Assembly: GCA_043817315.1 (NCBI GenBank)
Contig: JBDRGY010000013.1
Span: forward strand, 8,663 to 72,662
Source of the DNA: Patescibacteria group bacterium
GTDB taxonomy: Bacteria; Patescibacteriota; Patescibacteriia; JBDRGY01
Direction: 5' to 3'
DNA: 64,000 bases
In this document: positions 12,261-61,606 of the stretch, one piece after another
Position numbering within the stretch: position 1 is the first letter of the stretch
Layout: every line of letters starts with the position of its first letter
Made by a program: the position numbers and the translations under genes
The notes under the pieces: model-generated
The model's database searches: none
The model's input: the letters and a program-made list of their open reading frames with translations, nothing else
Told to the model about the DNA's origin: nothing

Positions 12261-12419
12261 ATATGTATTTTAAATAACCCTATTCATTTTTTTATGAATC
12301 TGATTTATCCCATAGCCCGCTAGACGCAGTAGCGTCTGAGGAGTGAGGGGCACTCATGCGGAGGTTGAAGCGGAAGAAATTTGATTACTGGAACGCAAGC
12401 CGAAGCATGAGATGAGCTG

Positions 12420-12485
12420 AGCCCAGAAGCGGACTCGAACCGCTGACCTACTCCTTACCATGGAGTTGCCTGCCCGCCAAGCGCC
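12420..12485 (-). pseudogene. partial degenerate copy of tRNA-Thr(GGU)
   Basis: gacctactccttaccatggagttgc is identical to the anticodon arm of the adjacent tRNA-Thr(GGU), but the D and T arms are altered and the acceptor cannot pair. Confidence 0.35.
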
Positions 12486-12488
12486 TGG

Positions 12489-12560
12489 AGCCGACGGTCG
12501 GACTTGAACCGACGACCTACTCCTTACCATGGAGTTGCTCTACCACTGAGCTACGTCGGC
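12489..12560 (-). tRNA. tRNA-Thr (anticodon GGU)
   Basis: Minus strand GCCGACGTAGCTCAGTGGTAGAGCAACTCCATGGTAAGGAGTAGGTCGTCGGTTCAAGTCCGACCGTCGGCT. Confidence 0.85.
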
Positions 12561-18949: not shown

Positions 18950-19025
18950 AAACTTTGCTAACTTCCAATAACGTCCTTTTACATTTTGAGGGTGTAAACA
19001 GAAGCTCAATCGAGAGGAGGCCTGC

Positions 19026-20204
19026 GTGAAAAAGAGGGATGTGGAACAGTATCCTGTTGGCAGCCCGGAGCGCGTAACCGCCGATTTTCTGAGGCGAGCC
19101 AGTCTCGGCAAACGACCAGCCCTTTCTTTCGCCGATGAGCACAATCCGATGGAAGCGGCCCGATTGGCCACTACAGTGCTGTACTGTGGCAACCCTGGTT
19201 TCATCCCCCTGCTCCTTGGAGACATGAAGGGTCTCAACCGCTTCATCCGGGCCAGACACTTGGCTGGCTACCGTTTTCGCAGAAGGCTGCCGGAATTCAT
19301 CATCCTGGGGCGCTTTTGGACTGACACCTGCGGCAACTTCGGTCGCATCCAGCAGACCGACATCCCAGAAGAAGTGATCGTCCAGCTACCCAGCTTGATG
19401 ACTCGGGAAGACTACTCTAGGGTAGCTAAGAGATGCCGGGCACAAGCCGACAAGGATCCGGAGCACACCTACTGGAGCGTTCCTATAGAGAGCAGCGTTC
19501 CTCCAGCTGGCCTGCTCTGTCCGGTTTGCGGCAACGCCTGGAACCTCAGCAACTGCCATGATACCGTGGTCACTCACCGAACCGAATCCATCCCTTTGTC
19601 TGACTTCGTTGGTTGGAGACTGGGTCAGGTCACCGCACATTTCAATCGCACTCCAGATGCAGTGATGCGCATGCAGTCAGATATCATGATCCGCAATGAC
19701 CGTCACATTGACCTGACACCCCATCCCGACTACGATACCCTAGTTCTCAACGAACGAGGCTGGGTGTCCGCCAAGGACGGGATCACGGATTACTACCAGG
19801 TTGAAGAGGGCGATGAAGCTTTCTTTAACATCTGGCAGTTCCGCCATCTGGCCTGTCAACGAGCCTGGCTTCAGGCCAAGGAACGAGAATACTTCCGCAA
19901 GATGTTCAGCGACGCCGGGATACCAGTCAGACGAATGCAGACCATTCCCAACGAGTACGACCCCAGCTATCCTCATTATGCTCCTTGGTTTATGGTCTAC
20001 ACCCCGATTGGCACCTTCAAGATTGGGTGGCGCAAACGGGTGATCAACATCGACTGGACCAAGGCTGAGGGTCAGTACGATGGCCTGTTTGCTGACCAGG
20101 ATGTTACCCAAGGTGCCAACCATGTTCACGCCTGGGGGACCGAGAAGGGCACTGAATACCTGAGTCGTATTGCCGAAGCCTCTCAGGCTGTGCTAGGATC
20201 CTAA
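19026..20204 (+). CDS. hypothetical protein (GC-rich island)
   Basis: GTG start with upstream GAGAGGAGG. 392 aa with a CPVCGNAWNLSNCHD Cys/His cluster and no recognisable family. Confidence 0.45.
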   Translation: MKKRDVEQYPVGSPERVTADFLRRASLGKRPALSFADEHNPMEAARLATTVLYCGNPGFIPLLLGDMKGLNRFIRARHLAGYRFRRRLPEFIILGRFWTDTCGNFGRIQQTDIPEEVIVQLPSLMTREDYSRVAKRCRAQADKDPEHTYWSVPIESSVPPAGLLCPVCGNAWNLSNCHDTVVTHRTESIPLSDFVGWRLGQVTAHFNRTPDAVMRMQSDIMIRNDRHIDLTPHPDYDTLVLNERGWVSAKDGITDYYQVEEGDEAFFNIWQFRHLACQRAWLQAKEREYFRKMFSDAGIPVRRMQTIPNEYDPSYPHYAPWFMVYTPIGTFKIGWRKRVINIDWTKAEGQYDGLFADQDVTQGANHVHAWGTEKGTEYLSRIAEASQAVLGS

Positions 20205-20345
20205 CACTCTCATTAATCACGCGTCCCCGTCCGCAAGGACTCAGGGGCGCTTTTTTTATATTAAAAAAGGTCCTGCACCTACGCTTGCGCGCTTGGTGCA
20301 GGACCTGTCGTTCGAACTCACTCCGTCCCAGAGGACGAGAGGGAG

Positions 20346-21302
20346 TTACTGCTGTGGAACCCTCGAACGATTCCGGGTGTCAAGCCAGGCCGGCTGACCC
20401 CAGTTCTGAGACGCGCTTGCATCCCAGACCATGGTAGCCTTGCCTGACTCAACCGCTTTGAGCCAGACCTCGCGCCGGATCTCCAGCTCCTTGAGCTGGA
20501 CCTCCTTCTTGATCTCGAGATCACGCATCTGGAGGTAGGCTGGATTGGCCGCGACAGCTGCCCCGATCTGATTGATCCGAGCAACTTCCTGGTCAGCGGC
20601 CAACCTTCTGATCTCCGCCTCCCAGATCTCCTGGGGTGCCTTAACGTTGGAGAGCGACATATCGAGCAACTCGATAGGAATGTCGGCCTCAGCGTAGACC
20701 TTCTTGGCCATCGCCCCCAACTCGAGCTCGATCTTCGGACGATTCCTCTGAATGTCTCGATAGTCGACGTATTCCCGGAAAACCTCCCTGGTACCCGCTC
20801 GCAGCTTCATGGCCGCGAAGTGCTCATGAATCATCTCGGTGGTGATTATGAACACTCTGGGGTCATCCGGAACTCGCGGATCCATCGATGACGGAATCGG
20901 GGTGATCGAGTTGATGATCAGGTTGATGTATTCCGGCGTAACCTTGACAATCTCTCGGTAGTAAACGTCGGCCGTTACCTGCGCCACTTCACCGGTCTTC
21001 GGATGTGGGGCACAATCGATCATGTGGTTGACCCGATCGGGCATAAGTTCGGCCGGCAGGTAGCGATCCTTGATCTGGACTGCCGTCACCTCGACCTGGA
21101 CTACGTAGCTGCCCTTGCCACCAGCGCCGAGCTTGCCGATGTCGACCTGACCGGGTTCCAGAATCTGGCCAGTCGGACCCTCAGGGGTGACCTCCATAGC
21201 CACCCAACCCTGCTGAGTGGTAACGTAGTTCGAGCATCCGGCCATGAACATCACGGCCAGCGCGACGACGATCAGAAACAGCTTGTTGAGATTCCTATCC
21301 AT
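20346..21302 (-). CDS. lipoprotein with SPFH/band-7-like domain (tentative)
   Basis: Lipobox FMAGC. The central region has loose SPFH-like blocks (VTADVYYREIV..., ...IELLDMSLSNVKAPQEIWEAEIRRLAADQE) and a coiled-coil C-terminus. Confidence 0.4.
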   Translation of the reverse strand: MDRNLNKLFLIVVALAVMFMAGCSNYVTTQQGWVAMEVTPEGPTGQILEPGQVDIGKLGAGGKGSYVVQVEVTAVQIKDRYLPAELMPDRVNHMIDCAPHPKTGEVAQVTADVYYREIVKVTPEYINLIINSITPIPSSMDPRVPDDPRVFIITTEMIHEHFAAMKLRAGTREVFREYVDYRDIQRNRPKIELELGAMAKKVYAEADIPIELLDMSLSNVKAPQEIWEAEIRRLAADQEVARINQIGAAVAANPAYLQMRDLEIKKEVQLKELEIRREVWLKAVESGKATMVWDASASQNWGQPAWLDTRNRSRVPQQ

Positions 21303-21354
21303 GGGGATAGTTCTCCTTTCCTGACAGGCGAAGATTATCCGATTGGATCATCCT

Positions 21355-21675
21355 CTAGTTGTCACCGATCCGGCGATCCAGAGCTTCTTTCTGCTGCTCG
21401 ATGCCAGTTCGGTCCTGCCCCCTTCGCTCCGACAGATTGACGCTGAGCGAGTTGAACAGGTTGAGCCCCAGCACCAGGGCGATGATCATGATCACCGTCC
21501 AGCGGATGCTGTGAATCCACTTCCTGCTCGCAATCTCGCTACGAGGCATGTTACGCAGCACCAGTCTCGTGACGTACAGAACGATGATGACAGCGATGAT
21601 AGCCGCCACGAACCAGCCTTTGTACATGGGCCAGACTGCGACCCAGCGCTCGGCCAGACTCATCGAGTTAAGCAT
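21355..21675 (-). CDS. small 2-TM membrane protein (possible NfeD-like partner of the SPFH lipoprotein)
   Basis: AGGAGG lies 6 nt before the internal Met (MLNSMSLAERW...). The gene is directly upstream of and co-oriented with the SPFH-like gene. Confidence 0.35.
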   Translation of the reverse strand: MLNSMSLAERWVAVWPMYKGWFVAAIIAVIIVLYVTRLVLRNMPRSEIASRKWIHSIRWTVIMIIALVLGLNLFNSLSVNLSERRGQDRTGIEQQKEALDRRIGDN

Positions 21676-21943
21676 TCCTACCTCCTTCATTCCGGAGAAA
21701 CGTAACAATACTCCACCACTAATCCATTTCACCTCCTGGCCAACCAACGGCCGGTTACTCAAACTGGTTTTATCCCTTCGGATTTTAAAAGTACTATCTA
21801 GCCAATACTTCAGCTAAACAGAATATACTAACATACCTTTCCCGATTTGTCAACCCTGAAAAAAAAGAAAAGGCGCAGTTTTTTGTTTTAATAAATAATT
21901 CCCGCCTAAGGCGGGCAGGTATCTGATTTGACGGAAATGAAGA

Positions 21944-21973
21944 GGCGCCGTTTCGCTTCCGCGAAACGGCGCC
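21944..21973. terminator. strong bidirectional intrinsic terminator
   Basis: GGCGCCGTTTCGC-TTCC-GCGAAACGGCGCC is a perfect 13-bp stem flanked by A/T runs. Confidence 0.5.
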
Positions 21974-22013
21974 TTCGTTGTGAACTCATTCCATCCAGGT
22001 AGGACAGAGCAAG

Positions 22014-22691
22014 TTACTCCGGAAGATCCGGACAGAACTTGATGACTTCGGATACGTCAGCCACTGACTGAATCCAGGGACTATCCAGATCCGAGATGAC
22101 CACGTAGGCCTGACAGTAGTCAAGTCCTGCAAGTTCAGGCTCTACTAAAGCGTACATCAACAGCCACAGAGTAACTGCTGGTTCGTTGCTAACTCCAATG
22201 GTCAGATGGGCATCTTCAAAACCCGAGACCAGGAAACTGCCTACTGCAGTCAGGGCCTGCTGTAAAGGCTGATCTCTGAACAGTTCAGCTGTATTGGCAG
22301 CGGCACAGAGCATCCAGTTGAGACCTCGGCTCTGGTGGCGTTTCCACCAACCATCTCTCTCGATCCAGTGCAGACTGATCATCTGCCTAATTCTCTCATC
22401 CTCATCAACTTGATTAGGATGAAAGAGCTCCCAAGCAGTCAACTCATGCTTGGGCAGACCGCCGTGCCTGAAGACCGGTTTGCCGAAAGTCCCGGTCAGT
22501 CTGGCCTGCAAGTCCAGATAGAGAGGACTAAGGGCCTGGCATTCCTGGATACCTTCTACAGAAAGATTGGTCCAAACCGTAGAAGTTCCCCTTCCTCTGA
22601 CCGGAGTGGCATTACGGATAAACACAGTGCAGTTGTTACCGTTCACTTCGGCAATCAGTTTCATTACCTCTTCCGGTGTCCTGGCAATCAT
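22014..22691 (-). CDS. hypothetical protein (GC-rich island)
   Basis: 225 aa, no recognisable motifs, and GC content matches the 19.0-22.8 kb island. Confidence 0.4.
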   Translation of the reverse strand: MIARTPEEVMKLIAEVNGNNCTVFIRNATPVRGRGTSTVWTNLSVEGIQECQALSPLYLDLQARLTGTFGKPVFRHGGLPKHELTAWELFHPNQVDEDERIRQMISLHWIERDGWWKRHQSRGLNWMLCAAANTAELFRDQPLQQALTAVGSFLVSGFEDAHLTIGVSNEPAVTLWLLMYALVEPELAGLDYCQAYVVISDLDSPWIQSVADVSEVIKFCPDLPE

Positions 22692-22832
22692 TTTGATTAC
22701 CTCCTTTTGCCTGGCACGCCGCAGTGTAAAAGATCAACCCCTTTTCTTAATTCCTTAGCTTATTACTCCTCGATTAGGTTGTCAAATCAAAAAGCTCGCC
22801 ATGGTGACGAGCCTGAAATTGGTAATTAATAA

Positions 22833-32186: not shown

Positions 32187-33344
32187 ATGGCTCGCAAAAT
32201 TGCCAAAGCTAAAACTGAATCCTCATACCAAAAGATTGTAATTGGCTTTATTATAGTCACTATTGTTGTTGTGGTTCTGATCGTTTATTTCTCTTTTTCC
32301 AAAACGGTGATCTCTATCACTCCCAATGACGAAACTATCAGTACTGATTTTGTAGCTTCCCTTAAAGAAACGGACGATCTGGAGGAATTGGAAAAGCCCA
32401 ATGTTCTTTTGGGTTCTTTTCTGCAAGCTGAGGTGGAGGGAGATCTAATCTATGACAACATTGAAGTCAGTTCCGAGATAGAAGATTTTGCCACCGGGGT
32501 AATTACCGTGATCAATAATCACTCCAGTGCTCAACCACTACAGGAAACAACGCGATTTTTAACTGAAGATGGAGTTTTGTTCCGCACCACTGAATTCGTC
32601 AACGTACCAGCCGGAGGAACTGTTGATGTCAACGTTAAAGCGGACCAGATAGGACCGACCGGAAATATCGGAGCATCCAAATTTACTATCCCCGGACTGT
32701 GGCCCGGATTACAAGACGACATCTTTGGGGAATCCAAGGAAGCGATGACCGGAGGTATCAAAAAGGCAAAAGCGGTAACCGAAGCCAATCTCACTGAAGC
32801 CAGACAACAACTGGAAAACGAACTGCTCTCCCAAGCTATGGCTAGTTTGCAAACTCAGGTCAAACAAACCGAAGCCATTTCTTCTTCCAGCACCTACACT
32901 GAAAAATTAGTTGACACTGTCACTGCCGAAGCCGGTGAAGAAGTTAATGACTTTACCGTTTCTATGAAGCTAAGGGTAACTGCCCTGGCTTTCAACCAAG
33001 ATTCTTTACTGACCCTGGCTCTGGATAATTTAAAAAAGAAAATTCCTTCCGATAAGGGTCTATACGATTACGGTATTGCCAATATGCAGTATTCGGTAGA
33101 TTCCCTGGATTTCGACGGTAAAACAGCTACCTTAAAAGTTCATTTCTCAGGATCAGTCCAAATTCGACTATCATCTTCTATTTTTGACCGCTCTAATATA
33201 GTTAACCGGGACAAGCAGGAAATTCAGGCTTACTTCGCCAATTTCGACGAGATAGCCACTGTCAAAATCCGTTTCTCCCCTTTCTGGGTGTTTCGGGCCC
33301 CGGCCTTAGAAGATCATATTGAAATACGTTTGCTGGAAGAATAA
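32187..33344 (+). CDS. hypothetical membrane-anchored protein
   Basis: N-terminal TM (VIGFIIVTIVVVVLIVYF) and a large extracytoplasmic domain. Confidence 0.45.
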   Translation: MARKIAKAKTESSYQKIVIGFIIVTIVVVVLIVYFSFSKTVISITPNDETISTDFVASLKETDDLEELEKPNVLLGSFLQAEVEGDLIYDNIEVSSEIEDFATGVITVINNHSSAQPLQETTRFLTEDGVLFRTTEFVNVPAGGTVDVNVKADQIGPTGNIGASKFTIPGLWPGLQDDIFGESKEAMTGGIKKAKAVTEANLTEARQQLENELLSQAMASLQTQVKQTEAISSSSTYTEKLVDTVTAEAGEEVNDFTVSMKLRVTALAFNQDSLLTLALDNLKKKIPSDKGLYDYGIANMQYSVDSLDFDGKTATLKVHFSGSVQIRLSSSIFDRSNIVNRDKQEIQAYFANFDEIATVKIRFSPFWVFRAPALEDHIEIRLLEE

Positions 33345-33346
33345 CC

Positions 33347-35092
33347 ATGCCAAAAGTTGATGCCAATCTGGATAAATTACGCCATACTACGGCCCATGTA
33401 ACGGCTGCGGCGGTTTTGGAATTGTTTCCCAATGCCAAGTTTGGCATCGGGCCAGTGATCAAAGATGGCTTTTACTATGATTTTGAACTGCCCAGAAGTT
33501 TAAACCCTCAAGACTTGCCTAAGGTTGAAGCAAAGATGAAAGAGATTATCAAGAGAAACCTGCCTCTGGAAAAAGTTGAAGTCAAGCCGGATCAGGCCGT
33601 CAAGATCAATCAAGAAGCTAAGCAGGTTTACAAACTGGAATTGATTGATGAGTTAATCCAGGCCAAAGAGCAGATAACAGTTTATAAATGCGGCCGCTTC
33701 AATGATTTGTGCCGCGGTCCTCACTTAACCAAAACAGGTCTTATAAAACCGGAAACCTTTAAGCTGCTGGGGATTGCTGGAGCTTACTGGAAAGGTGACG
33801 AAAAAAGACCGATGCTGCAGAGAATTTATGGTACGGTTTGGCAAAACAAAGCTGATCTCGACATATACTTAAAAAGAATCCAGGAAGCAGAAAGCCGCAA
33901 CCACCGCATCCTGGGTAAACAGTTGGATTTATACTCCATCCAGGAAAAAGCCGGAGCCGGCTTGGTCTTTTGGCATCCTAATGGAGCCCTAATTCGCCAC
34001 CAGATAGAAACCTTCTGGAAAGATGAACATTTCAAACAAGGCTATCAATTACTTTATACTCCTCATATTGCCAAGCTAGATATCTGGAAGAAATCCGGCC
34101 ACTGGGAGAAATTCCGGGAAAACATGTTCTCCCCGATGCAGATAGATAATATCCCCTACGAAATTAAACCGATGAACTGCCCCTTCCACATTATGATCTA
34201 CCAAACCAAGAAATGGAGTTATAAGGAACTGCCCTTGCGCTGGGGCGAACTGGGCACTGTCTATCGCTATGAACCGTCCGGCACCTTGCACGGGCTGACC
34301 AGAGTCAGGGGCTTTACCCAAGACGATGCTCACATCTTTTGTACTGAAGAACAGTTTGCCAAAGAAGTAGAGGAAACCGTCAAACTGGCTAATTACATGA
34401 TGAAGGTTTTTGGCTTGAAGCCCAAACATTATTTAGCTACCCGCCCTGAGAAATTCCTGGGCAAAAAAGAAACCTGGGATTTTGCCGAAGGCATACTAGA
34501 AAAAGTATTAAAGAAATTAAAACTGGAATATGAAGTAGATAAAGGTGGCGGAGTTTTTTACGGTCCTAAGATTGATGTTAAAGTCACTGATGCCCTGATG
34601 CGGGAATGGCAGGGACCGACTATTCAATTAGATTTCAATTTACCAGAAAGATTTAATGTTACTTATGTAGACAAAGGCGGCCAGAATAAAAAAGTAATCA
34701 TGATCCACCGTACAGTCTTAGGTTCAATGGAAAGATTTTTAGGCAGTCTGATCGAACACTACGGCGGCAACTTTCCGGCCTGGCTGGCTCCGGTTCAGGT
34801 ACAAATCATGCCGGTCGGTTCCAAGCATATCAAACCATCCCAAAAGTTGGGTGAAGAACTAAAAAAAGAAGGATTTAGAGTTTATGTTGATGATCTCAAT
34901 GAAACAGTGGGCTATAAAATCAGAAAAGCCATCCAGCAGAAAGTGCCTTACATGCTGGTAATCGGTGATAAAGAAGTTAAACAGACCAAACTGGCAGTTC
35001 GGGAAAGAGGCAAGAAAGTTGTTAAGAATATTGCCAAGAAAACTTTCATCAAGCAACTTCACGAAGAGATAGCCAAAAAGAAAATCAAATAG
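33347..35092 (+). CDS. thrS: threonyl-tRNA synthetase (short form lacking N-terminal TGS domain)
   Basis: Class II motifs, Zn-binding CGRFNDLCRGPH, and a C-terminal anticodon-binding domain. Confidence 0.9.
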   Translation: MPKVDANLDKLRHTTAHVTAAAVLELFPNAKFGIGPVIKDGFYYDFELPRSLNPQDLPKVEAKMKEIIKRNLPLEKVEVKPDQAVKINQEAKQVYKLELIDELIQAKEQITVYKCGRFNDLCRGPHLTKTGLIKPETFKLLGIAGAYWKGDEKRPMLQRIYGTVWQNKADLDIYLKRIQEAESRNHRILGKQLDLYSIQEKAGAGLVFWHPNGALIRHQIETFWKDEHFKQGYQLLYTPHIAKLDIWKKSGHWEKFRENMFSPMQIDNIPYEIKPMNCPFHIMIYQTKKWSYKELPLRWGELGTVYRYEPSGTLHGLTRVRGFTQDDAHIFCTEEQFAKEVEETVKLANYMMKVFGLKPKHYLATRPEKFLGKKETWDFAEGILEKVLKKLKLEYEVDKGGGVFYGPKIDVKVTDALMREWQGPTIQLDFNLPERFNVTYVDKGGQNKKVIMIHRTVLGSMERFLGSLIEHYGGNFPAWLAPVQVQIMPVGSKHIKPSQKLGEELKKEGFRVYVDDLNETVGYKIRKAIQQKVPYMLVIGDKEVKQTKLAVRERGKKVVKNIAKKTFIKQLHEEIAKKKIK

Positions 35093-35227
35093 TCTTTTGA
35101 TACTAAGCTCTTTAACCAAGGAAGGTCATATGGCTAAGCCCAGGACTGGCCTGATCCAGTGGTAATCCACAAGATCGGTGCCCCTATTCTTTGTGCTTTT
35201 CTGTTGCTGATGCAGCTGATTAGCTTT

Positions 35228-35300
35228 CTTAAGAGCACCTCTCCCACACCATAATCTGAGTGTGGGATTTTTTTATCCTGCCTCCCACATGGTGCAGGAT
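35228..35300 (+). terminator. two tandem intrinsic terminators after thrS
   Basis: cccacaccataatctgagtgtggg+T8 and cctgcctcccacatggtgcagg+T5. Confidence 0.5.
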
Positions 35301-35370
35301 TTTTGACAAAATTATTTCATTTTGTTAAGTTTATTGACCGAACTAATCGCTCTATACACGGGGGGCTATT

Positions 35371-35601
35371 ATGCTCAAACTGTTTGGGGTCCTGGGTCTT
35401 TGCATGGTCTTCAGCCTCGGCTTTTGTACCTTCATGGTCTGTCTGATGCCTCCTTTTTCCCATCCTGATCACATCCACAAAATGCCCTATGATTACCGAC
35501 GATGGATAAGGAAAACCAAGGGCAGGCGAATCGCCGTCGCCATGTTGGGACTAGTCGTTTGCCTAATCGGCTTTTTCTCCTTGATGCATGTTCTCCACTA
35601 A
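35371..35601 (+). CDS. small hydrophobic protein (76 aa)
   Basis: TTGACC-N17-TATACA promoter at about 35336-35364, a GGGGGG SD, and two TM helices. Confidence 0.35.
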   Translation: MLKLFGVLGLCMVFSLGFCTFMVCLMPPFSHPDHIHKMPYDYRRWIRKTKGRRIAVAMLGLVVCLIGFFSLMHVLH

Positions 35602-35617
35602 CCAAAGGAGAAACGCT

Positions 35618-35806
35618 ATGGGCACAAACGCCTGGGCAGTAAGAGTACGACAGCGGTTTTCCCGCTTCAGCTCAGTGCCAATGAGCAGATTACTTGAGCG
35701 TGCGGTTGTAATCGTTCTTCTGCTCTGCGTCACCCTGATTCTGACAACCTGGTTGCTGGAGTCTATTGCCGGCAAGTCTGTTCATTTCTTCTACATCTTG
35801 ATGTAG
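35618..35806 (+). CDS. small membrane protein (62 aa)
   Basis: AAAGGAG lies 7 nt upstream of the ATG. One TM helix. Followed by terminator gagcagg..cctgctc+T6. Confidence 0.35.
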   Translation: MGTNAWAVRVRQRFSRFSSVPMSRLLERAVVIVLLLCVTLILTTWLLESIAGKSVHFFYILM

Positions 35807-35859
35807 CTCCTGGAGCAGGTATCTATTCCTGCTCTTTTTTATTGGGGAAAAGCTTTATA

Positions 35860-35888
35860 TTGACATAGTTGCTACATAAGTATAAAGT
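35860..35888 (+). promoter_or_regulatory. promoter of unit 1: TTGACA-N17-TAAAGT
   Basis: ttgacatagttgctacataagtataaagt. The same architecture recurs five times in 2.2 kb. Confidence 0.5.
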
Positions 35889-35891
35889 CTA

Positions 35892-36176
35892 CTTGGCTAC
35901 ATATCGGAGGAAAACCAGTATTGGGCTGATCTGTTGTGGGTTTAGACTCGCTATCTGGGACTGACATCCCCGGATGAATGTGCGCACTGGCGAGGGGCGC
36001 TGGACCCACAATGGACTTCATCAAGGGGCTGGCCCCTTCTCCCGATATGGCGGTCTGGGTGCGATCCAGACCAGCCTTTCAAAGCCGAAAGGCCACCTCA
36101 AAAGAGGTGTATTCCTACAGCGCCTGATGTCTCCTTCGCCCCGTGATCCTGTGAGGTCATTGGGGCGATTTTTTAT
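35892..36176 (+). ncRNA. candidate structured RNA, unit 1 (about 285 nt, GC-rich, ends in intrinsic terminator)
   Basis: From the predicted TSS to terminator cgcccc..ggggcg+T7. Shares GGGGCGCTGG..TGGACCCAC blocks with unit 2. No credible ORF. Confidence 0.35.
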
Positions 36177-36205
36177 TTGACAACCAATAGAAGATAATAT
36201 AAAGT
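36177..36205 (+). promoter_or_regulatory. promoter of unit 2: TTGACA-N17-TAAAGT
   Basis: ttgacaaccaatagaagataatataaagt. Confidence 0.5.
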
Positions 36206-36211
36206 CAGACC

Positions 36212-36460
36212 TGCATCCCTCGTTAAACCAGTACTGTGTGAGGGAAATCGGGTTTATTAATACCGGCTGGTCCAGAGCGACACTCTGGGAATAACGCACC
36301 AGCCAGGAACGACGCTGGGCCCGATAGACAACTCCGCAGGGGCGCTGGCCTCTAGCCTGGGATTGTGTGGACCCACGAGGTCCATATCGTTACCCGAAAG
36401 GGATTTTGCGTTACAGCGTCGGCTGTCATTGGCTCTGCTTCGGTAGAGCCAATTTTTTAT
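36212..36460 (+). ncRNA. candidate structured RNA, unit 2 (about 250 nt), paralog of unit 1
   Basis: Contains cgcaggggcgctgg...tgtggacccacga. Ends with ggctctgcttcggtagagcc+T6. Confidence 0.35.
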
Positions 36461-36475
36461 TGGGGAAAACTCCCC

Positions 36476-36504
36476 TTGACAGCCAAAAGCCCAAGGAGTA
36501 AATT
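36476..36504 (+). promoter_or_regulatory. promoter of unit 3: TTGACA-N17-TAAATT
   Basis: ttgacagccaaaagcccaaggagtaaatt. Confidence 0.45.
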
Positions 36505-36510
36505 CATAAC

Positions 36511-36812
36511 TGGTTGTTGTTGTCGTTTGGCAAGTCAGCAAGTAAGTTAGGCGAAAGCCCATGGCTTTCCAGGCCCTCTCGTTTTTATGAGATGGCCAAG
36601 TCCCACGCCCTAGTTGACAGCTAGGCCAAGATCATGACCAGATGGGGCGCTGATACCGGGCCAGACGCGGTCGCCTAAAAGAAACCTGATAAGCCTTACG
36701 GCAGCAGCCGTGGTCGACTATTCGGCCACACGAGACGCGCTAGGATGACGCACCAGGTATCAGTGTCATTCGCCCCTACTGGCTAGCCAGATGGTGTAGG
36801 GGCGATTTTTTT
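36511..36812 (+). ncRNA. candidate structured RNA, unit 3 (about 300 nt)
   Basis: Contains the shared motif gatggggcgctgatacc. Ends with cgcccctac...gtaggggcg+T7. Confidence 0.3.
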
Positions 36813-36822
36813 ACTCCAGGGG

Positions 36823-36851
36823 TTGACAAATCAATAATCTTGTGATAATCT
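36823..36851 (+). promoter_or_regulatory. promoter of unit 4: TTGACA-N17-TAATCT
   Basis: ttgacaaatcaataatcttgtgataatct. It drives the secreted-protein gene. Confidence 0.45.
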
Positions 36852-36921
36852 ATCCTGTCTTCAGGGACAATATTGAAGACGGGTTTTTAAGTACCTTAAC
36901 AGGGGAATCATCCCCAAAACC

Positions 36922-37533
36922 ATGGAGGAGCGTATGCTAAAGTTACGTTCTTTGGTTGTGGTCATTGTTACCTTGGCGGCCCTCCTGCCGCTCTCAGCCC
37001 TGGCGGTGGACTCTGCTCAGTTCCAGACCTGCGCCATTGTACTGGTTCCGGTACAGGGCAACTTCAATGCCTGTGCTATCGGTCAGCTGGTCAATGTACC
37101 CAGTGAAGGTCTGGAGAATTGGTATTACTACGCTGGTCCCGCCTGGATGTCTGATGGCGGAGCCTTGCTGGTGATGCCGCTGGTCGGTCAGATCACCAAT
37201 CGGGGACTGGAAGGTCAGGACGCCACCATCGCCTCACTGTGGAGCATCTGGCAACCCACCGAGAAATTCAAGCTGTTCGTCCAAGGTGACATGTACACCT
37301 ATGGCGACGAAACAGAATATCTCGGCTGGTTGACTACCGACTACTTTCTGACCCCGGATGTTACCTGCGGATTCCACGTCGAGAGGAATGTCGGTGATCT
37401 CTACACCGACACTACCATCGGACCCCACGTTGGAATCACTAAGGGTCCCTGCCGCCTGGAGTTACAGTGGCACGGCTCTATCGAGGGCAAGACCCACGCC
37501 CTCCGCTTGTACACCGAATTCCTGTTCTTCTAG
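36922..37533 (+). CDS. secreted hypothetical protein with C-terminal aromatic residue (possible beta-barrel or phage-derived; GC-rich)
   Basis: Signal peptide MLKLRSLVVVIVTLAALLPLSALA. The likely true start is the ATG at 36934, preceded by GGAGGAG. The protein ends ...RLYTEFLFF and is followed by a terminator ggggag+T7. Confidence 0.45.
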   Translation: MEERMLKLRSLVVVIVTLAALLPLSALAVDSAQFQTCAIVLVPVQGNFNACAIGQLVNVPSEGLENWYYYAGPAWMSDGGALLVMPLVGQITNRGLEGQDATIASLWSIWQPTEKFKLFVQGDMYTYGDETEYLGWLTTDYFLTPDVTCGFHVERNVGDLYTDTTIGPHVGITKGPCRLELQWHGSIEGKTHALRLYTEFLFF

Positions 37534-37595
37534 ACAGGAACACTCCCCAAAGCCATCACGGCCTAGGGGAGTTTTTTTGATTGTGGATATCTGGC

Positions 37596-37624
37596 TTGAC
37601 AGTCAAACCTACCTGTTATAAAGT
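37596..37624 (+). promoter_or_regulatory. promoter of unit 5: TTGACA-N17-TAAAGT
   Basis: ttgacagtcaaacctacctgttataaagt. Confidence 0.5.
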
Positions 37625-37630
37625 CATAAT

Positions 37631-38027
37631 CACCGTGATCAGCCAAGTTACGATGCGGATGAGGGCCTGTGGGCACAAAGAGAGACTGCCTAGTCAAGAC
37701 AGAACAGGGGTGCACCAGTCTAAAGACGGCGCAAAAACCCGCACGGCACCGCATGGAGGGCTAGCTGGAGCTCAAGTCACGGTCAGGTGGGCCATGACGA
37801 CGACGGAAAAAAGATGCCTACCTAGAGTCAGGCACGGATGGCACTCTCGGGATTATCCTGTAGAAGTCTGGGGTCCGTCCCAGCATGCAGGGCAAGAACC
37901 TGCTCTACGGGCGACATTCCCGAGCGAGGATGCCTAAAACCGGCATGACTAGCTCGAAAGAGCAAACACGAAGGCGCCGCATCTGTCTATCCCTGTGCAG
38001 GCCTGCACAGGGATATTTTTTTTACTC
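37631..38027 (+). ncRNA. candidate structured RNA, unit 5 (about 390 nt, GC-rich), ending in a strong terminator just upstream of miaB
   Basis: Terminator ccctgtgcaggcctgcacaggg+T8. No SD-associated ORF. I looked for RNase P, tmRNA and SRP hallmarks and did not find them. Confidence 0.3.
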
Positions 38028-38053
38028 AATTTCTATTGTATAATAAACCCACT

Positions 38054-59656: not shown

Positions 59657-59761
59657 ACAAAATCATTATAGCATATCCGTTTGACAGCTAATGGCTTATT
59701 TGCTAAGTTAAACTACTTTTCGCAAAAAACAGATAGCGCTCCTTACAATGGAGGGGTGATA

Positions 59762-60055
59762 ATGCCTCAGTTCGAACTGCAGTTCCAGTTTGTGGCTATG
59801 ATGCAGCCAGATCAGGCTGAAGTGGTAGCAGCACGAATGGAGAAGGTTGTCCCTTTCCCCCACAACACCCAATCCCTGGTCACCAAGGAAGGCAGCAGCT
59901 GCATGATCTGGTTACAGGTTGACGGTCCTTTTTCTGACAATGCCTATGCCACCGATTGGGCCAAAGCGGCCCGGAGAGATATGTTGGCTACCGTTACCGA
60001 AGAAGAAACTGTCGTTCCTCACGTTATCGTGGTGGCCCAGCTCAAGGAGGATTGA
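59762..60055 (+). CDS. small hypothetical protein, tandem paralog 1 (GC-rich)
   Basis: GGAGGGG SD, then MPQFELQFQFVAMMQPDQAEVVAARMEKVVPFPH. Confidence 0.4.
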   Translation: MPQFELQFQFVAMMQPDQAEVVAARMEKVVPFPHNTQSLVTKEGSSCMIWLQVDGPFSDNAYATDWAKAARRDMLATVTEEETVVPHVIVVAQLKED

Positions 60056-60057
60056 TT

Positions 60058-60387
60058 TTGCCTTTATTCGAGATCCACTGGAAGTTCGTGGCCAACCTGA
60101 CTCCGCATCAAGCCGCCACCGCTGTAGTACTACTGCAACATCGAGTGCCCGAGCTGGCTGATTGCGGGTCAGAAATCACCGATAACCGCGAACCGCCCAA
60201 CCGGATCAAGTTGATCGCTGAATATGAGTGCGACGACCAACAAGCTGCCCAAGATTGGGCTGATCTCATTCAAGGTAAGGTAATCGCGTCAGGAGCCATC
60301 AGCTGCCTCAAGCCTGAATACCGCATGGTAATCAGTGCTCCGAACAAACCTCTACCAAAGGAGGTTCCATGCCCCGCTTCCGGATAA
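60058..60387 (+). CDS. small hypothetical protein, tandem paralog 2 (TTG start)
   Basis: AAGGAGG lies 7 nt upstream of the TTG. LPLFEIHWKFVANLTPHQAATAVVLLQHRVPELA parallels paralog 1. Confidence 0.35.
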   Translation: MPLFEIHWKFVANLTPHQAATAVVLLQHRVPELADCGSEITDNREPPNRIKLIAEYECDDQQAAQDWADLIQGKVIASGAISCLKPEYRMVISAPNKPLPKEVPCPASG

Positions 60388-60489
60388 CCATCAAGTTCTC
60401 TGACCCGATCACTCAAGGTAATACCAGAGATTTCAATGACTAGTTCTTTCTGCCCTTGGTTAACACCGAGGGCTTTTTTATTTATTAAA

Positions 60490-60520
60490 AAAACCCGCTT
60501 CCTGACGAAAGCGGGTATGT
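60490..60520. terminator. bidirectional intrinsic terminator
   Basis: aaaaaaacccgctt-cctgacgaa-agcgggtatg is flanked by A and T runs between convergent genes. Confidence 0.45.
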
Positions 60521-60522
60521 GA

Positions 60523-61323
60523 TCAAGCGACCAGGGCTGGTTCCAGCCTGGTGCGCATACTGAGACTATGCTCAATCTCAGCAGTTACTTCCTCGATTGC
60601 TATCAGAGGATTGGTGTAGGGATCAATGTCGATCATCAACTGATCAGCCCCCAGGCTCAGGGCAAAAGCCGGGGTCACTAATCCGGTCAGATCAGCATAG
60701 CGCCAACCGGGTTGCACTGGAACGATCTTCTGACAGCCGGCCAAGGCCGTCATCTCGCTCAGGCCGATCAGATCCTGACCAGAGCAGAACAGCTTGGTTA
60801 CCCCTGCCCATTTTGCCTTTAGAGCATAATGCAGGGCCCGAGAACCTGGTTCCTTCCAGGAATAGCCTGTTGTCTTACTGACGCTGAACAGGTCATCATC
60901 GAACAGACCAGGTACCCCTGTATCGACTACCAGGATGCATTCCTGATCTCCCCCCTGAAACTGCCCAGTTGCCCACTCCAGACAAGTTGGGTGCATCTCT
61001 CCGGATACGGCCAGAGCAGCGACATAGTCATTTTCAGCTACTCGACCTACCCAGGTCATGAAATCTCTTGTGTTAGATTGAAGATGTGGGCGGTCGTCGA
61101 TCCAAACCAGCTTACCCAGTTCCCTGATAGCGACCATAAGTTCTCCTGCCAAAGGTTTACGTAATACAGGCAGGGTGTAGGCGTAGTAAGTGTTAACGTG
61201 GATCACGAATCCTGCCACTACCGGCAGATGACCCACGGTTTCCACGATCTGCCGGGCTCGCGAGTAATCGCTCATCAGATGATCCAAGACCACCCAGACC
61301 ATGGAATCGGCTGTTCGGGTCAT
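60523..61323 (-). CDS. hypothetical protein (GC-rich; loosely TIM-barrel/OMP-decarboxylase-like but lacking the catalytic Lys)
   Basis: VWVVLDH...WIDDRPHLQSNTRDF resembles the OMPDC DxKxxDI block, but with Arg in place of Lys. Assignment is not reliable. Confidence 0.35.
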   Translation of the reverse strand: MTRTADSMVWVVLDHLMSDYSRARQIVETVGHLPVVAGFVIHVNTYYAYTLPVLRKPLAGELMVAIRELGKLVWIDDRPHLQSNTRDFMTWVGRVAENDYVAALAVSGEMHPTCLEWATGQFQGGDQECILVVDTGVPGLFDDDLFSVSKTTGYSWKEPGSRALHYALKAKWAGVTKLFCSGQDLIGLSEMTALAGCQKIVPVQPGWRYADLTGLVTPAFALSLGADQLMIDIDPYTNPLIAIEEVTAEIEHSLSMRTRLEPALVA

Positions 61324-61606
61324 TTGTTCCCCCTTTGAAATGAGCATTTTTTAATCGATATTATACCTTATCTTGAGAAAAATAATCGGTCAAGCCCGGT
61401 ATTTACCTAATCTTAGCCAAAAAGCCATATTGAACCTAGAATTGATTAGTCCCAAAAAAAAGCTAATATTAGCTAAAAAACCTGCATTTTTTATCCCCAA
61501 GCCTACCATTGACTTATCCAAAAATGTCTGTATCTTTAAACTAGCCTTTAAATAAAGGGCAAAATCTATCTTTTAACAAAATTTTTTTTATTTTAGATTC
61601 AAAATT

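What the first reader, a model, noticed from the sequence alone, without database searches (positions are those of the whole stretch)
35100..38030. GC-rich island of at least five tandem promoter / structured-RNA / terminator units between thrS and miaB
Within about 2.9 kb the motif TTGACA-N17-TAAAGT (variants TAAATT, TAATCT) recurs five times at roughly 250-400 nt spacing. Each is followed by a 250-400 nt segment at about 55-60 percent GC that ends in a strong intrinsic terminator. Terminator-to-promoter junctions are conserved (ttttttattggggaaaa...ttgaca occurs twice). Units 1-3 share internal blocks (GGGGCGCTGG, TGGACCCAC) and look paralogous. Unit 4 drives a secreted 200-aa protein ending in FLFF. 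The island begins with two small membrane-protein genes behind their own TTGACC promoter and double terminators after thrS. The only ORFs in units 1, 2, 3 and 5 lack SDs and run through terminator hairpins. RNase P, tmRNA and SRP hallmarks are absent. Candidates are a tandem array of novel sRNAs, a decayed phage or integrative element rich in strong promoters, or an undescribed RNA-based system.
Basis: partly seen in the sequence, partly recalled or inferred. Interest (0 to 1): 0.8.

Follow-up and report, generated by a model that had tools for sequence, protein, structure and literature searches.

The report
Tandem novel small RNAs beside porin
A foreign, GC-rich 2.9-kb islet in a Patescibacteria (CPR) genome carries four back-to-back promoter-to-terminator units that probably produce non-coding RNAs of about 250-400 nt of no known family, next to an outer-membrane-type porin gene; they look like real but very lineage-restricted small RNAs whose targets are unknown.

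Summary
The pattern is real. TTGACA-N17-TAAAGT/TAAATT occurs four times in the islet, against 0.06 matches expected in the whole window. A fifth promoter is TTGACA-N17-TAATCT. Each is followed by 250-400 nt and an intrinsic terminator.

Units 1, 2, 3 and 5 have no ribosome-binding site, no codon periodicity (0.7-1.3, against 2.2-5.8 for islet genes) and no Rfam match. Unit 3 is conserved in the only other genome that carries the islet. It is 74% identical where fourfold sites are 40-57% identical, and its consensus fold beats column shuffles (z -3 to -4). Units 1 and 2 are distant siblings with six co-linear helices. Unit 5 is an orphan.

- GC-richness belongs to the whole acquired islet, not to the RNAs. 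The window holds two more such ORFan islets.
- Single-sequence folding energy does not separate the units from coding sequence.
- Unit 3 is not demonstrably a paralogue of units 1 and 2.
- Unit 4 encodes a 12-stranded KdgM/NanC/PcoB-like beta-barrel.

Best reading: a tandem array of new, independently transcribed small RNAs in an envelope-protein islet. Function is untested. No phage, integron, toxin-antitoxin or RNA-guided system was found.

The parts
35093..35302 (+). Islet head: apparent frameshifted remnant of a small membrane ORF, then one strong terminator (hairpin 35242-35267 plus U-run)
   Evidence: The relative L001 has intact 45-aa and 34-aa ORFs here, while the window has only an 11-codon ORF plus an out-of-frame hydrophobic tail (read; MAFFT aligns only the terminator/promoter part). 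Terminator -14.1 kcal/mol, z -3.95. The 'second terminator' 35279-35306 is weak.
35303..35331 (+). Promoter P0, TTGACA-N17-TAAGTT, for the small-membrane-protein operon
   Evidence: The whole terminator-promoter stretch aligns closely with L001 (conservation line).
35371..35806 (+). Two small membrane-protein genes: 76 aa (35371-35601) and 62 aa (35618-35806, SD AAGGAG)
   Evidence: ORFs. The 76-aa protein is 74% identical to its L001 homologue. Among 5.8e9 clustered proteins it exists only in these two genomes. No family hits. Codon periodicity 3.8 for the 76-aa gene.
35812..35841 (+). Terminator of the membrane-protein operon; its U-run opens the 17-nt junction repeat
   Evidence: -13.6 kcal/mol, z -4.6.
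35860..36176 (+). Unit 1: promoter 35860-35888, about 280-nt non-coding transcript (about 35895-36176), terminator 36136-36174
   Evidence: No SD or ORF. Periodicity 1.3. Sibling of unit 2.
36177..36460 (+). Unit 2: promoter 36177-36205, about 250-nt non-coding transcript, terminator 36428-36459
   Evidence: -17.3 kcal/mol. Periodicity 0.8. Six helices co-linear with unit 1: 45 pairs, 20 changed on both sides, 0 broken.
36476..36812 (+). Unit 3: promoter 36476-36504, about 300-nt non-coding transcript, 12-bp long-range helix 36646-36657/36756-36767, terminator 36770-36812
   Evidence: Homologue at L001:1073-1378. 74% identity against 40-57% at fourfold sites. Alifold z -3.1 to -4.2. Pair counts.
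36823..37582 (+). Unit 4: promoter TTGACA-N17-TAATCT (36823-36851), structured 5'UTR (hairpins 36854-36883 and 36902-36915), SD 36925-36930, 199-aa signal-peptide protein (36934-37533), terminator 37543-37580
37596..38025 (+). Unit 5: promoter 37596-37624, about 395-nt non-coding transcript, GAAA hairpin 37951-37962, terminator 37988-38023
   Evidence: -20.6 kcal/mol. Periodicity 0.7 and flat phase GC, including in its 94-codon open frame. Only the 14-nt hairpin AGCUCGAAAGAGCA and the tail layout recur, in the 3'UTR of the L001 porin gene.

Best explanation
The thrS-miaB spacer holds a horizontally acquired, compositionally foreign islet. Its genes are individually insulated by a consensus-like sigma-70 promoter and an intrinsic terminator. 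Two of the units make proteins: a 76-aa and a 62-aa membrane protein, and a 12-stranded outer-membrane-type beta-barrel. Four units (1, 2, 3, 5) are genes for stable non-coding RNAs of about 250-400 nt from new families. Units 1 and 2 are siblings from a tandem duplication. Unit 3 is the conserved core member, sitting directly upstream of the barrel gene in both known genomes. Unit 5 is an orphan whose 3' module resembles the barrel gene's 3'UTR in the relative.

The sequence directly shows the promoter and terminator anatomy, the absence of coding signal, the conservation of unit 3 and the helices shared by units 1 and 2. I infer that the units are transcribed, because selection has kept the promoter hexamers. 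The mode of action is untested. They most likely act in trans, by base-pairing or by binding a protein, as sibling regulatory sRNAs that tune envelope or islet gene expression.
For: Promoters. Five TTGACA-N17-TAAAKT matches against 0.06 expected. The hexamers are identical across units 1, 2, 5 and the L001 copy of unit 3, while the 17-nt spacers differ; the window and L001 spacers of unit 3 share 6 of 17 positions (my count). 7 of 10 TTGACA-N16-18-TAWRNT matches in the window lie in the three GC-rich islets.

Terminators. -13.6 to -22.1 kcal/mol.

Not coding. No SD, stops in all frames or only an Arg-rich open frame. Codon periodicity 0.7-1.3, against 2.2-5.8 for every islet CDS, and flat phase-wise GC in units 1, 2 and 5. 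No tblastx similarity to anything held. NCBI locus tags _04780 and _04785 are consecutive, so nothing was annotated between them.

Unit 3. Alignment z 16 and 74% identity, against 40-57% at fourfold sites of miaB, the barrel gene and the 76-aa gene. RNAalifold energy beats column shuffles, z -3.1 to -4.2 with 0/200, while five CDS controls give +0.2 to -2.0. There are 11 pairs changed on both sides. In the 12-bp helix the only substitutions in two otherwise identical blocks are complementary, U-A to C-G.

Units 1 and 2. Alignment z 4.6. Base-pair-probability overlap 26.0 against 4.5 +/- 3.9 for shuffled unit 2, z 5.5. Six co-linear helices.

Helix GGCGCUG/CAGCGCC. The 3' strand varies C to U among units 1, 2, 3 and L001 and keeps G.U pairs, which only works in plus-strand RNA (read).
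Against: - There is no expression data.
- Only two genomes carry the islet, so covariation rests on sequence pairs and on structures derived from those same sequences.
- RNAalifold on the sequence-based unit 1/unit 2 alignment is no better than shuffles, z -0.1 to -0.6.
- Single-sequence folding z-scores do not exceed CDS controls.
- Unit 5 has nothing beyond a promoter, a terminator and one hairpin.
- A covariance model of the unit 3 domain finds no sibling in the window.
- No convincing target complementarity was found. The best unit 3-barrel duplexes are not at homologous sites in the relative, and the shared AAACCAGUAYUG motif has no excess of matches.
- The islet shows decay elsewhere (apparent frameshifted head ORF), so some units could be relics.
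Confidence: 0.55

Rival explanations
1. The non-coding units are relics of protein-coding cassettes. The islet once held small ORFan genes like those in the relative, their reading frames decayed, and the promoters and terminators simply have not yet eroded.
For: The relative L001 has two SD-bearing small protein genes (96 and 104 aa) where the window has unit 5. The islet head looks like a frameshifted small ORF (read). Unit 5 keeps a 94-codon open frame. Single-sequence folding z-scores are not better than CDS.
Against: There is no residual codon periodicity or phase GC in any unit, including the unit 5 open frame. No tblastx similarity to the L001 cassettes or anything else. Unit 3 is non-coding in both genomes, with indels that are not multiples of three, yet it is conserved well above the neutral rate and has compensatory changes. 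Promoter hexamers are identical in all units although the spacers differ.
Confidence: 0.17
2. The units are cis-acting parts of neighbouring mRNAs rather than free RNAs: long regulated leaders or attenuators (unit 3 for the barrel gene) or a 3'UTR (unit 5), with conditional read-through of their terminators.
For: Unit 3 sits directly upstream of the barrel gene in both genomes. In unit 3 a long-range helix closes 3 nt before the terminator, a riboswitch-like layout. In L001 the unit 5-like hairpin and tail form the barrel gene's 3'UTR, with no terminator or promoter in between. The GGGGCG box equals the 3' half of the unit 1 and unit 3 terminator stems and could act as an anti-terminator.
Against: Each downstream unit has its own strong promoter right after the terminator. 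The terminators are very stable, with U6-U8 tracts. No known riboswitch or leader matches. The anti-terminator pairing is not kept in L001, whose terminator stem is CCCCCCU/AGGGGGG. Units 1 and 2 are followed only by further non-coding units.
Confidence: 0.13
3. The units encode very small or unconventional proteins (leaderless, non-AUG or SD-less translation) or are dual-function RNAs.
For: Unit 1 has GGAGGA 8 nt before an AUU/UUG. Unit 3 has a 9-codon AUG ORF. Small proteins are common in this islet.
Against: No AUG or GUG at the predicted 5' ends. The tiny ORFs are not conserved between unit 3 and its L001 homologue. No periodicity.
Confidence: 0.05

Closest known systems
Sibling sRNA arrays (Listeria LhrC1-4, enterobacterial OmrA/OmrB, Pseudomonas PrrF1/2; reviewed in PMC4211561; details below are from my own knowledge)
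   Same: Tandem, same-strand RNA genes, each with its own sigma-70-type promoter and Rho-independent terminator, arisen by local duplication (units 1 and 2). They sit next to or act on envelope and outer-membrane protein genes. They are lineage-restricted.
   Different: These are 250-400 nt and multi-helix, against about 90-150 nt. The siblings share almost no primary sequence apart from a 12-nt motif and short boxes. No seed, target or chaperone is known. The host is a CPR bacterium. Membership cannot be claimed, because these are functional classes defined by experiment.
Large structured non-coding RNAs of unknown function (raiA, OLE, ROOL, GOLLD, HEARO) and housekeeping RNAs (6S, RNase P, tmRNA, SRP)
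   Same: Size range of hundreds of nt, several hairpins including GNRA-capped ones (GAAA loops in units 1, 2, 3 and 5), own promoter and terminator.
   Different: No Rfam model matches even at E <= 10 and ARAGORN finds no tmRNA. Distribution is two genomes rather than whole phyla. Evidence for tertiary-structure-grade conservation is lacking.
3'UTR-derived sRNAs of envelope genes (for example MicL, CpxQ; my own knowledge)
   Same: In the relative, the unit 5-like hairpin and terminator module is the 3' end of the barrel mRNA. In the window the same module ends a separately promoted RNA just downstream of the barrel gene.
   Different: Only 14 nt plus the layout are shared. Global alignment is not significant. 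Processing is untested.
KdgM/NanC/PcoB-type 12-stranded outer-membrane beta-barrels (for the unit 4 protein)
   Different: 8-9% identity and no Pfam hit for any of 43 family members. The host phylum is generally regarded as lacking an outer membrane and BAM (my own knowledge), so the membrane it inserts into is unknown.

Membership tests
Any Rfam 15 family (RNase P, tmRNA, SRP, 6S, riboswitches, OLE/GOLLD/ROOL/HEARO/raiA and others) | Covariance-model score at or above the family's gathering threshold | tested here: not met
   Only 4 tRNAs elsewhere reach threshold. Permissive scans of the islet, of single units and of the L001 homologue give only noise at E 0.2-10, far below gathering scores. 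ARAGORN finds nothing in the islet.
Sibling (multicopy) trans-acting sRNAs | Adjacent same-strand genes, each with its own promoter and intrinsic terminator | tested here: met
Sibling (multicopy) trans-acting sRNAs | Copies are recognisably homologous in sequence and structure | tested here: inconclusive
   Units 1 and 2 pass: alignment z 4.6, base-pair overlap z 5.5, 45 shared pairs. Unit 3 and unit 5 against units 1/2 fail: z < 0.2, and the covariance model finds no hit.
Sibling (multicopy) trans-acting sRNAs | Discrete stable transcripts that regulate targets by base-pairing | not testable with these tools
   No transcriptome is available. In-window target searches were uninformative, and only 64 kb of the genome is available.
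Riboswitch or transcription-attenuating leader | Lies in the 5'UTR of the regulated gene, with no promoter in between, and has a conserved aptamer or alternative pairing | tested here: not met
   A promoter follows every terminator. No aptamer family matches. The candidate anti-terminator pairing is not conserved in L001.
Type I toxin-antitoxin locus | Small hydrophobic toxin gene overlapped by, or complementary to, an antisense RNA | tested here: not met
   Small membrane proteins are present, but the RNAs are on the same strand, do not overlap them, and show no complementarity above background (the inverted-repeat list has only 13-20-nt, 74-87% matches).
Prophage or integrative-element remnant; integron cassette array | Integrase or recombinase, att/attC repeats at the borders, phage or mobile-element genes, tRNA target | tested here: not met
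   No PHROG, Pfam or NCBIfam hits. No similarity to 50,697 phage records or to IMG/VR. No tRNA in the islet. The only flanking repeats are terminator T-runs. The cassettes carry their own promoters, unlike integron cassettes.
RNA-guided or RNA-templated systems (CRISPR, OMEGA/HEARO, bridge RNA, retron, DRT) | Adjacent effector, reverse transcriptase or recombinase gene, and the cognate RNA fold | tested here: not met
   The only islet proteins are two small membrane proteins and a beta-barrel. No Rfam match.
KdgM/NanC-like 12-stranded outer-membrane porins (unit 4 protein) | Sec signal peptide, closed antiparallel barrel of about 12 strands, C-terminal aromatic residue | tested here: met
   [not shown]
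KdgM/NanC-like 12-stranded outer-membrane porins (unit 4 protein) | Sequence membership in a curated family (Pfam KdgM family or any other) | tested here: not met
   No Pfam family at E <= 0.01 for any of 43 homologues. No related PDB sequence; the only two hits at E <= 1 are an antibody chain and a xylanase.

The most novel reading that the evidence does not exclude
The RNAs and the beta-barrel form one functional module of an episymbiont. Abundant structured RNAs would be made to work with, or pass through, an outer-membrane-type pore that a cell without an outer membrane can only use in its host's envelope. That would make them host-directed RNA effectors, or an RNA-protein envelope complex, rather than ordinary regulators. 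Nothing tested excludes this. The only support is the conserved adjacency of unit 3 and the barrel gene, and the oddity of such a barrel in Patescibacteria.
Probability: 0.03. Interest if true: 0.9.

Novelty: new member of a known kind. Interest (0 to 1): 0.45.

Why it matters
Small RNAs of Patescibacteria are essentially uncharted, and these reduced genomes tolerate little non-coding DNA. About 1.3 kb of promoter-driven non-coding RNA genes in one spacer is therefore notable and gives concrete, testable sRNA candidates for the phylum.

The work also shows that this genome is dotted with GC-rich ORFan islets whose genes are individually insulated by consensus promoters and strong terminators. 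One of them carries an outer-membrane-type porin family that also occurs in Falkowbacteria, which bears on how CPR cells build or exploit envelopes.

The practical limit is that the RNAs exist in only two sampled genomes, so their general importance is probably small.

Tried and rejected
- Known RNA families: six Rfam scans and ARAGORN found nothing.
- Alternative genetic codes or hidden ORFs: every frame has a mix of TAA, TAG and TGA stops, except one unit 5 frame that has no coding signature.
- Homologues of the RNAs:
  - blastn and tblastx against 80 MiaB loci from GTDB genomes and about 40 other loci found nothing.
  - The junction pattern in JGI metagenomes gave 25 hits; only L089 matched the islet by blastn, with the same identity and alignment lengths as L001, so it is taken to be the same sequence.
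  - Three IMG/VR pattern scans gave only chance hits in GC-rich phages.
  - Phage blastn found nothing.
- Protein anchors: the 199-aa and 76-aa proteins retrieve only the source MAG and L001 at close range. The closest other MiaB loci examined (59-61% identity) lack the islet.
- Thermodynamic stability as evidence of structure: rejected, because CDS controls score the same.
- One RNA family for all units: rejected.
- sRNA-target prediction: RNAduplex on long sequences is uninformative, and local duplexes with the barrel leader are not conserved.
- A first AlphaFold run with 2 sequences failed (pLDDT 32). It succeeded only after the profile search supplied 41 more homologues.
- The afdb50 fold library was unavailable.
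- mafft-qinsi was not installed, so no structure-aware alignment of units 1 and 2 could be made. The helix table is hand-curated.


Full report
ORGANISM AND SETTING

The window is 42% GC. Its MiaB is 100% identical, and its 199-aa and 76-aa islet proteins 99-100% identical, to proteins of an NCBI 'Patescibacteria group bacterium' MAG on a 75,395-bp contig. The finding lies between thrS (33347-35092) and miaB (start 38054), among housekeeping genes (dnaE, miaA, gatB, tmk, thyX).

CHECK OF THE OBSERVATION

TTGACA-N17-TAAAGT/TAAATT occurs at 35860, 36177, 36476 and 37596 on the plus strand. The whole window has five matches against 0.06 expected. A fifth promoter (TTGACA 36823, N17, TAATCT) precedes the protein gene. 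Each unit ends in a stable hairpin plus U-run (-13.6 to -22.1 kcal/mol). The 17-nt junction TTTTTTATTGGGGAAAA is repeated exactly 618 nt apart, bracketing units 1 and 2. So the architecture is real and far beyond chance.

Several details needed correction:
- Only one of the two 'terminators' after thrS is real.
- The head promoter is TTGACA-N17-TAAGTT at 35303, not the TTGACC.
- The units' GC content (54-56%) equals that of the islet's protein genes (49-57%, GC3 0.62-0.69) and contrasts with the host (42%, GC3 0.37-0.48). GC-richness therefore marks foreign DNA, not RNA structure.
- The window holds two more such GC-rich ORFan islets, at 19.0-22.7 kb and 59.7-61.35 kb, with the same promoter and terminator style. 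7 of 10 consensus-like promoters in 64 kb fall in these three islets.

ARE THE UNITS CODING?

No. They have no SD, and either stops in all frames or, in unit 5, a 94-codon Arg-rich open frame. Codon periodicity is absent (signal/noise 0.7-1.3, against 2.2-5.8 for every islet CDS), and phase-wise GC is flat even in the unit 5 open frame. tblastx finds no similarity to the relative's cassettes, the rest of the window or 119 other loci. This also argues against recently decayed genes.

ARE THEY KNOWN RNAs?

No. Rfam at gathering threshold finds only four tRNAs elsewhere. Permissive scans of the islet, of single units and of the relative give only noise. ARAGORN finds nothing. NCBI locus tags for the 76-aa and 199-aa genes are consecutive, so NCBI's annotation has nothing between them.

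RELATIVES

Only one other sequence carries the islet: L001, a 4.6-kb contig held by both ENA and JGI (MiaB 78% identical; L089 from the JGI scan appears to be the same sequence). There the islet is again directly upstream of miaB. It shares the head promoter, the 76-aa gene, a second small membrane gene, unit 3, the barrel gene and a unit 5-like 3' module. It lacks units 1 and 2, and has two SD-bearing small protein genes instead of most of unit 5.

The closest other MiaB loci examined (59-61% identity) have no islet. Scans of GTDB genomes, JGI metagenomes, IMG/VR and phage genomes found nothing else. The islet is therefore a lineage-specific acquisition with cassette turnover.

EVIDENCE THAT THE RNAs MATTER

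(i) Promoters. The -35 and -10 hexamers are identical across units 1, 2, 5 and the L001 copy of unit 3, while the spacers differ (6/17 identical between the two unit 3 copies, my count). That is a signature of selection for transcription.

(ii) Unit 3. Fourfold-degenerate sites of three shared genes are only 40-57% identical between the two genomes. The unit 3 core is 74% identical in aligned columns (z 16 against shuffles), with indels that are not multiples of three. RNAalifold consensus energy beats column-shuffled alignments (z -3.1 to -4.2, 0/200), whereas five CDS controls give +0.2 to -2.0. The 12-bp helix GGCGCUGAUACC/GGUAUCAGUGUC lies in two otherwise identical blocks, and their only substitutions are complementary (U-A to C-G). 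Inner stems add further double changes.

(iii) Units 1 and 2. They are weakly but significantly alignable (z 4.6). Their independently computed base-pair probabilities coincide through that alignment: 26.0 expected pairs, against 4.5 +/- 3.9 for shuffled unit 2 (z 5.5). Six co-linear helices contain 45 pairs, of which 20 are invariant, 5 are changed on one side, 20 are changed on both sides and none is broken.

(iv) In units 1, 2, 3 and L001 the 5' strand GGCGCUG is invariant, while its partner reads CAGCGCC, CAGCGUC or CAGUGUC. Pairing is kept through G.U, which only makes sense in plus-strand RNA.

WEAKNESSES

- There is no expression data.
- Only pairs of sequences are available, and the structures are derived from the sequences they are tested on.
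- RNAalifold on the unit 1/unit 2 sequence alignment is not better than shuffles.
- Single-sequence folding z-scores (-1.7 to -4.5) are matched by CDS controls (-1.9, -4.3).
- Unit 3 is not detectably related to units 1 and 2.
- Unit 5 is an orphan, apart from a 14-nt GAAA hairpin and a tail layout shared with the L001 barrel 3'UTR.
- No target complementarity stands out.

UNIT 4

INTERPRETATION

The best-supported reading (confidence about 0.55) is a tandem array of new, independently transcribed small RNA genes inside an acquired envelope-protein islet. It is analogous in layout to sibling sRNA arrays such as LhrC1-4 or OmrA/B (review PMC4211561), but the RNAs are much longer and more diverged.

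The 17-nt direct repeat bracketing units 1 and 2, and the promoter type shared by all non-coding units, point to growth of the array by tandem duplication of a promoter-RNA-terminator module. The mode of action (trans base-pairing or protein binding, probably on envelope genes) is an inference only.

The rivals are decayed cassettes (0.17), cis-acting leaders or 3'UTRs with read-through (0.13) and tiny proteins (0.05). Phage remnant, integron, type I toxin-antitoxin and RNA-guided systems each fail a defining feature.

VERDICT

This is a genuine feature and plausibly a set of novel sRNAs, but of very narrow distribution and unknown function. It is of moderate interest. The porin-like barrel in a CPR genome is arguably the more surprising by-product.

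Noticed in passing
[not shown]
   Followed up: partly
window 19000-22700: A second GC-rich islet (54% GC, GC3 0.54-0.78) between prmC and two DUF3048 genes. It holds four ORFan genes (392, 318, 107 and 225 aa; lipoprotein- or membrane-like), TTGACA promoters and strong, partly bidirectional terminators of the GGGGCG-U type. No Pfam, PHROG or NCBIfam hits above noise.
   Followed up: partly
window 59680-61350: A third GC-rich islet (51% GC) between an AddA-like helicase-nuclease gene and V-type ATPase genes. It has a TTGACA-N17-TAAGTT promoter, two or three tandem small proteins of about 95 aa that appear paralogous, a bidirectional terminator, and a 274-aa ORFan on the minus strand.
   Followed up: partly
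window 35131-35260 vs L001:105-365: The islet head in the window looks like a frameshifted remnant of a small membrane-protein ORF: an 11-codon ORF followed by an out-of-frame hydrophobic tail. The ORF is intact (45 aa, plus a second 34-aa ORF) in the relative. This suggests ongoing decay and turnover in the islet.
   Followed up: partly
window 36854-36933; L001:1410-1490: The 5'UTR of the barrel gene has two hairpins kept by compensatory changes (alifold z -9.9, SCI 0.95). The first begins at the predicted +1 and is followed by U5, so it is either a 5'-end stabiliser or a leader attenuator.
   Followed up: partly
window 36509-36520 vs 35912-35923 and 36225-36236: The extreme 5' end of unit 3 (CAUAACUGGUUG) is complementary over 7 contiguous bases to the unpaired motif AAACCAGUAYUG shared by units 1 and 2. 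The L001 unit 3, whose genome lacks units 1 and 2, does not have it. This could be chance (about 0.1 expected).
   Followed up: no
L001:2097-2320: In the relative, the barrel gene runs without a terminator into a 220-nt structured 3'UTR that ends with the same GCUC-GAAA-GAGC hairpin, GCGCC box and terminator layout as window unit 5. It is a candidate 3'UTR-derived sRNA.
   Followed up: partly
window 12419-12560 (minus strand): ARAGORN calls two tRNA-Thr(GGU) genes that overlap by 5 nt (12419-12490 and 12486-12560). Rfam supports only the second, so the first may be a false call or a degenerate copy.
   Followed up: no
window 32187-33344: The 385-aa membrane-anchored protein just upstream of thrS gives a weak Baseplate_J-like Pfam hit (E 1.8e-5) in an otherwise housekeeping neighbourhood.
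   Followed up: no
L108:8038-9527: A relative with 59% MiaB identity carries a diversity-generating-retroelement-like pair (bAvd accessory protein plus reverse transcriptase) about 4 kb downstream of miaB. It is unrelated to the finding.
   Followed up: no
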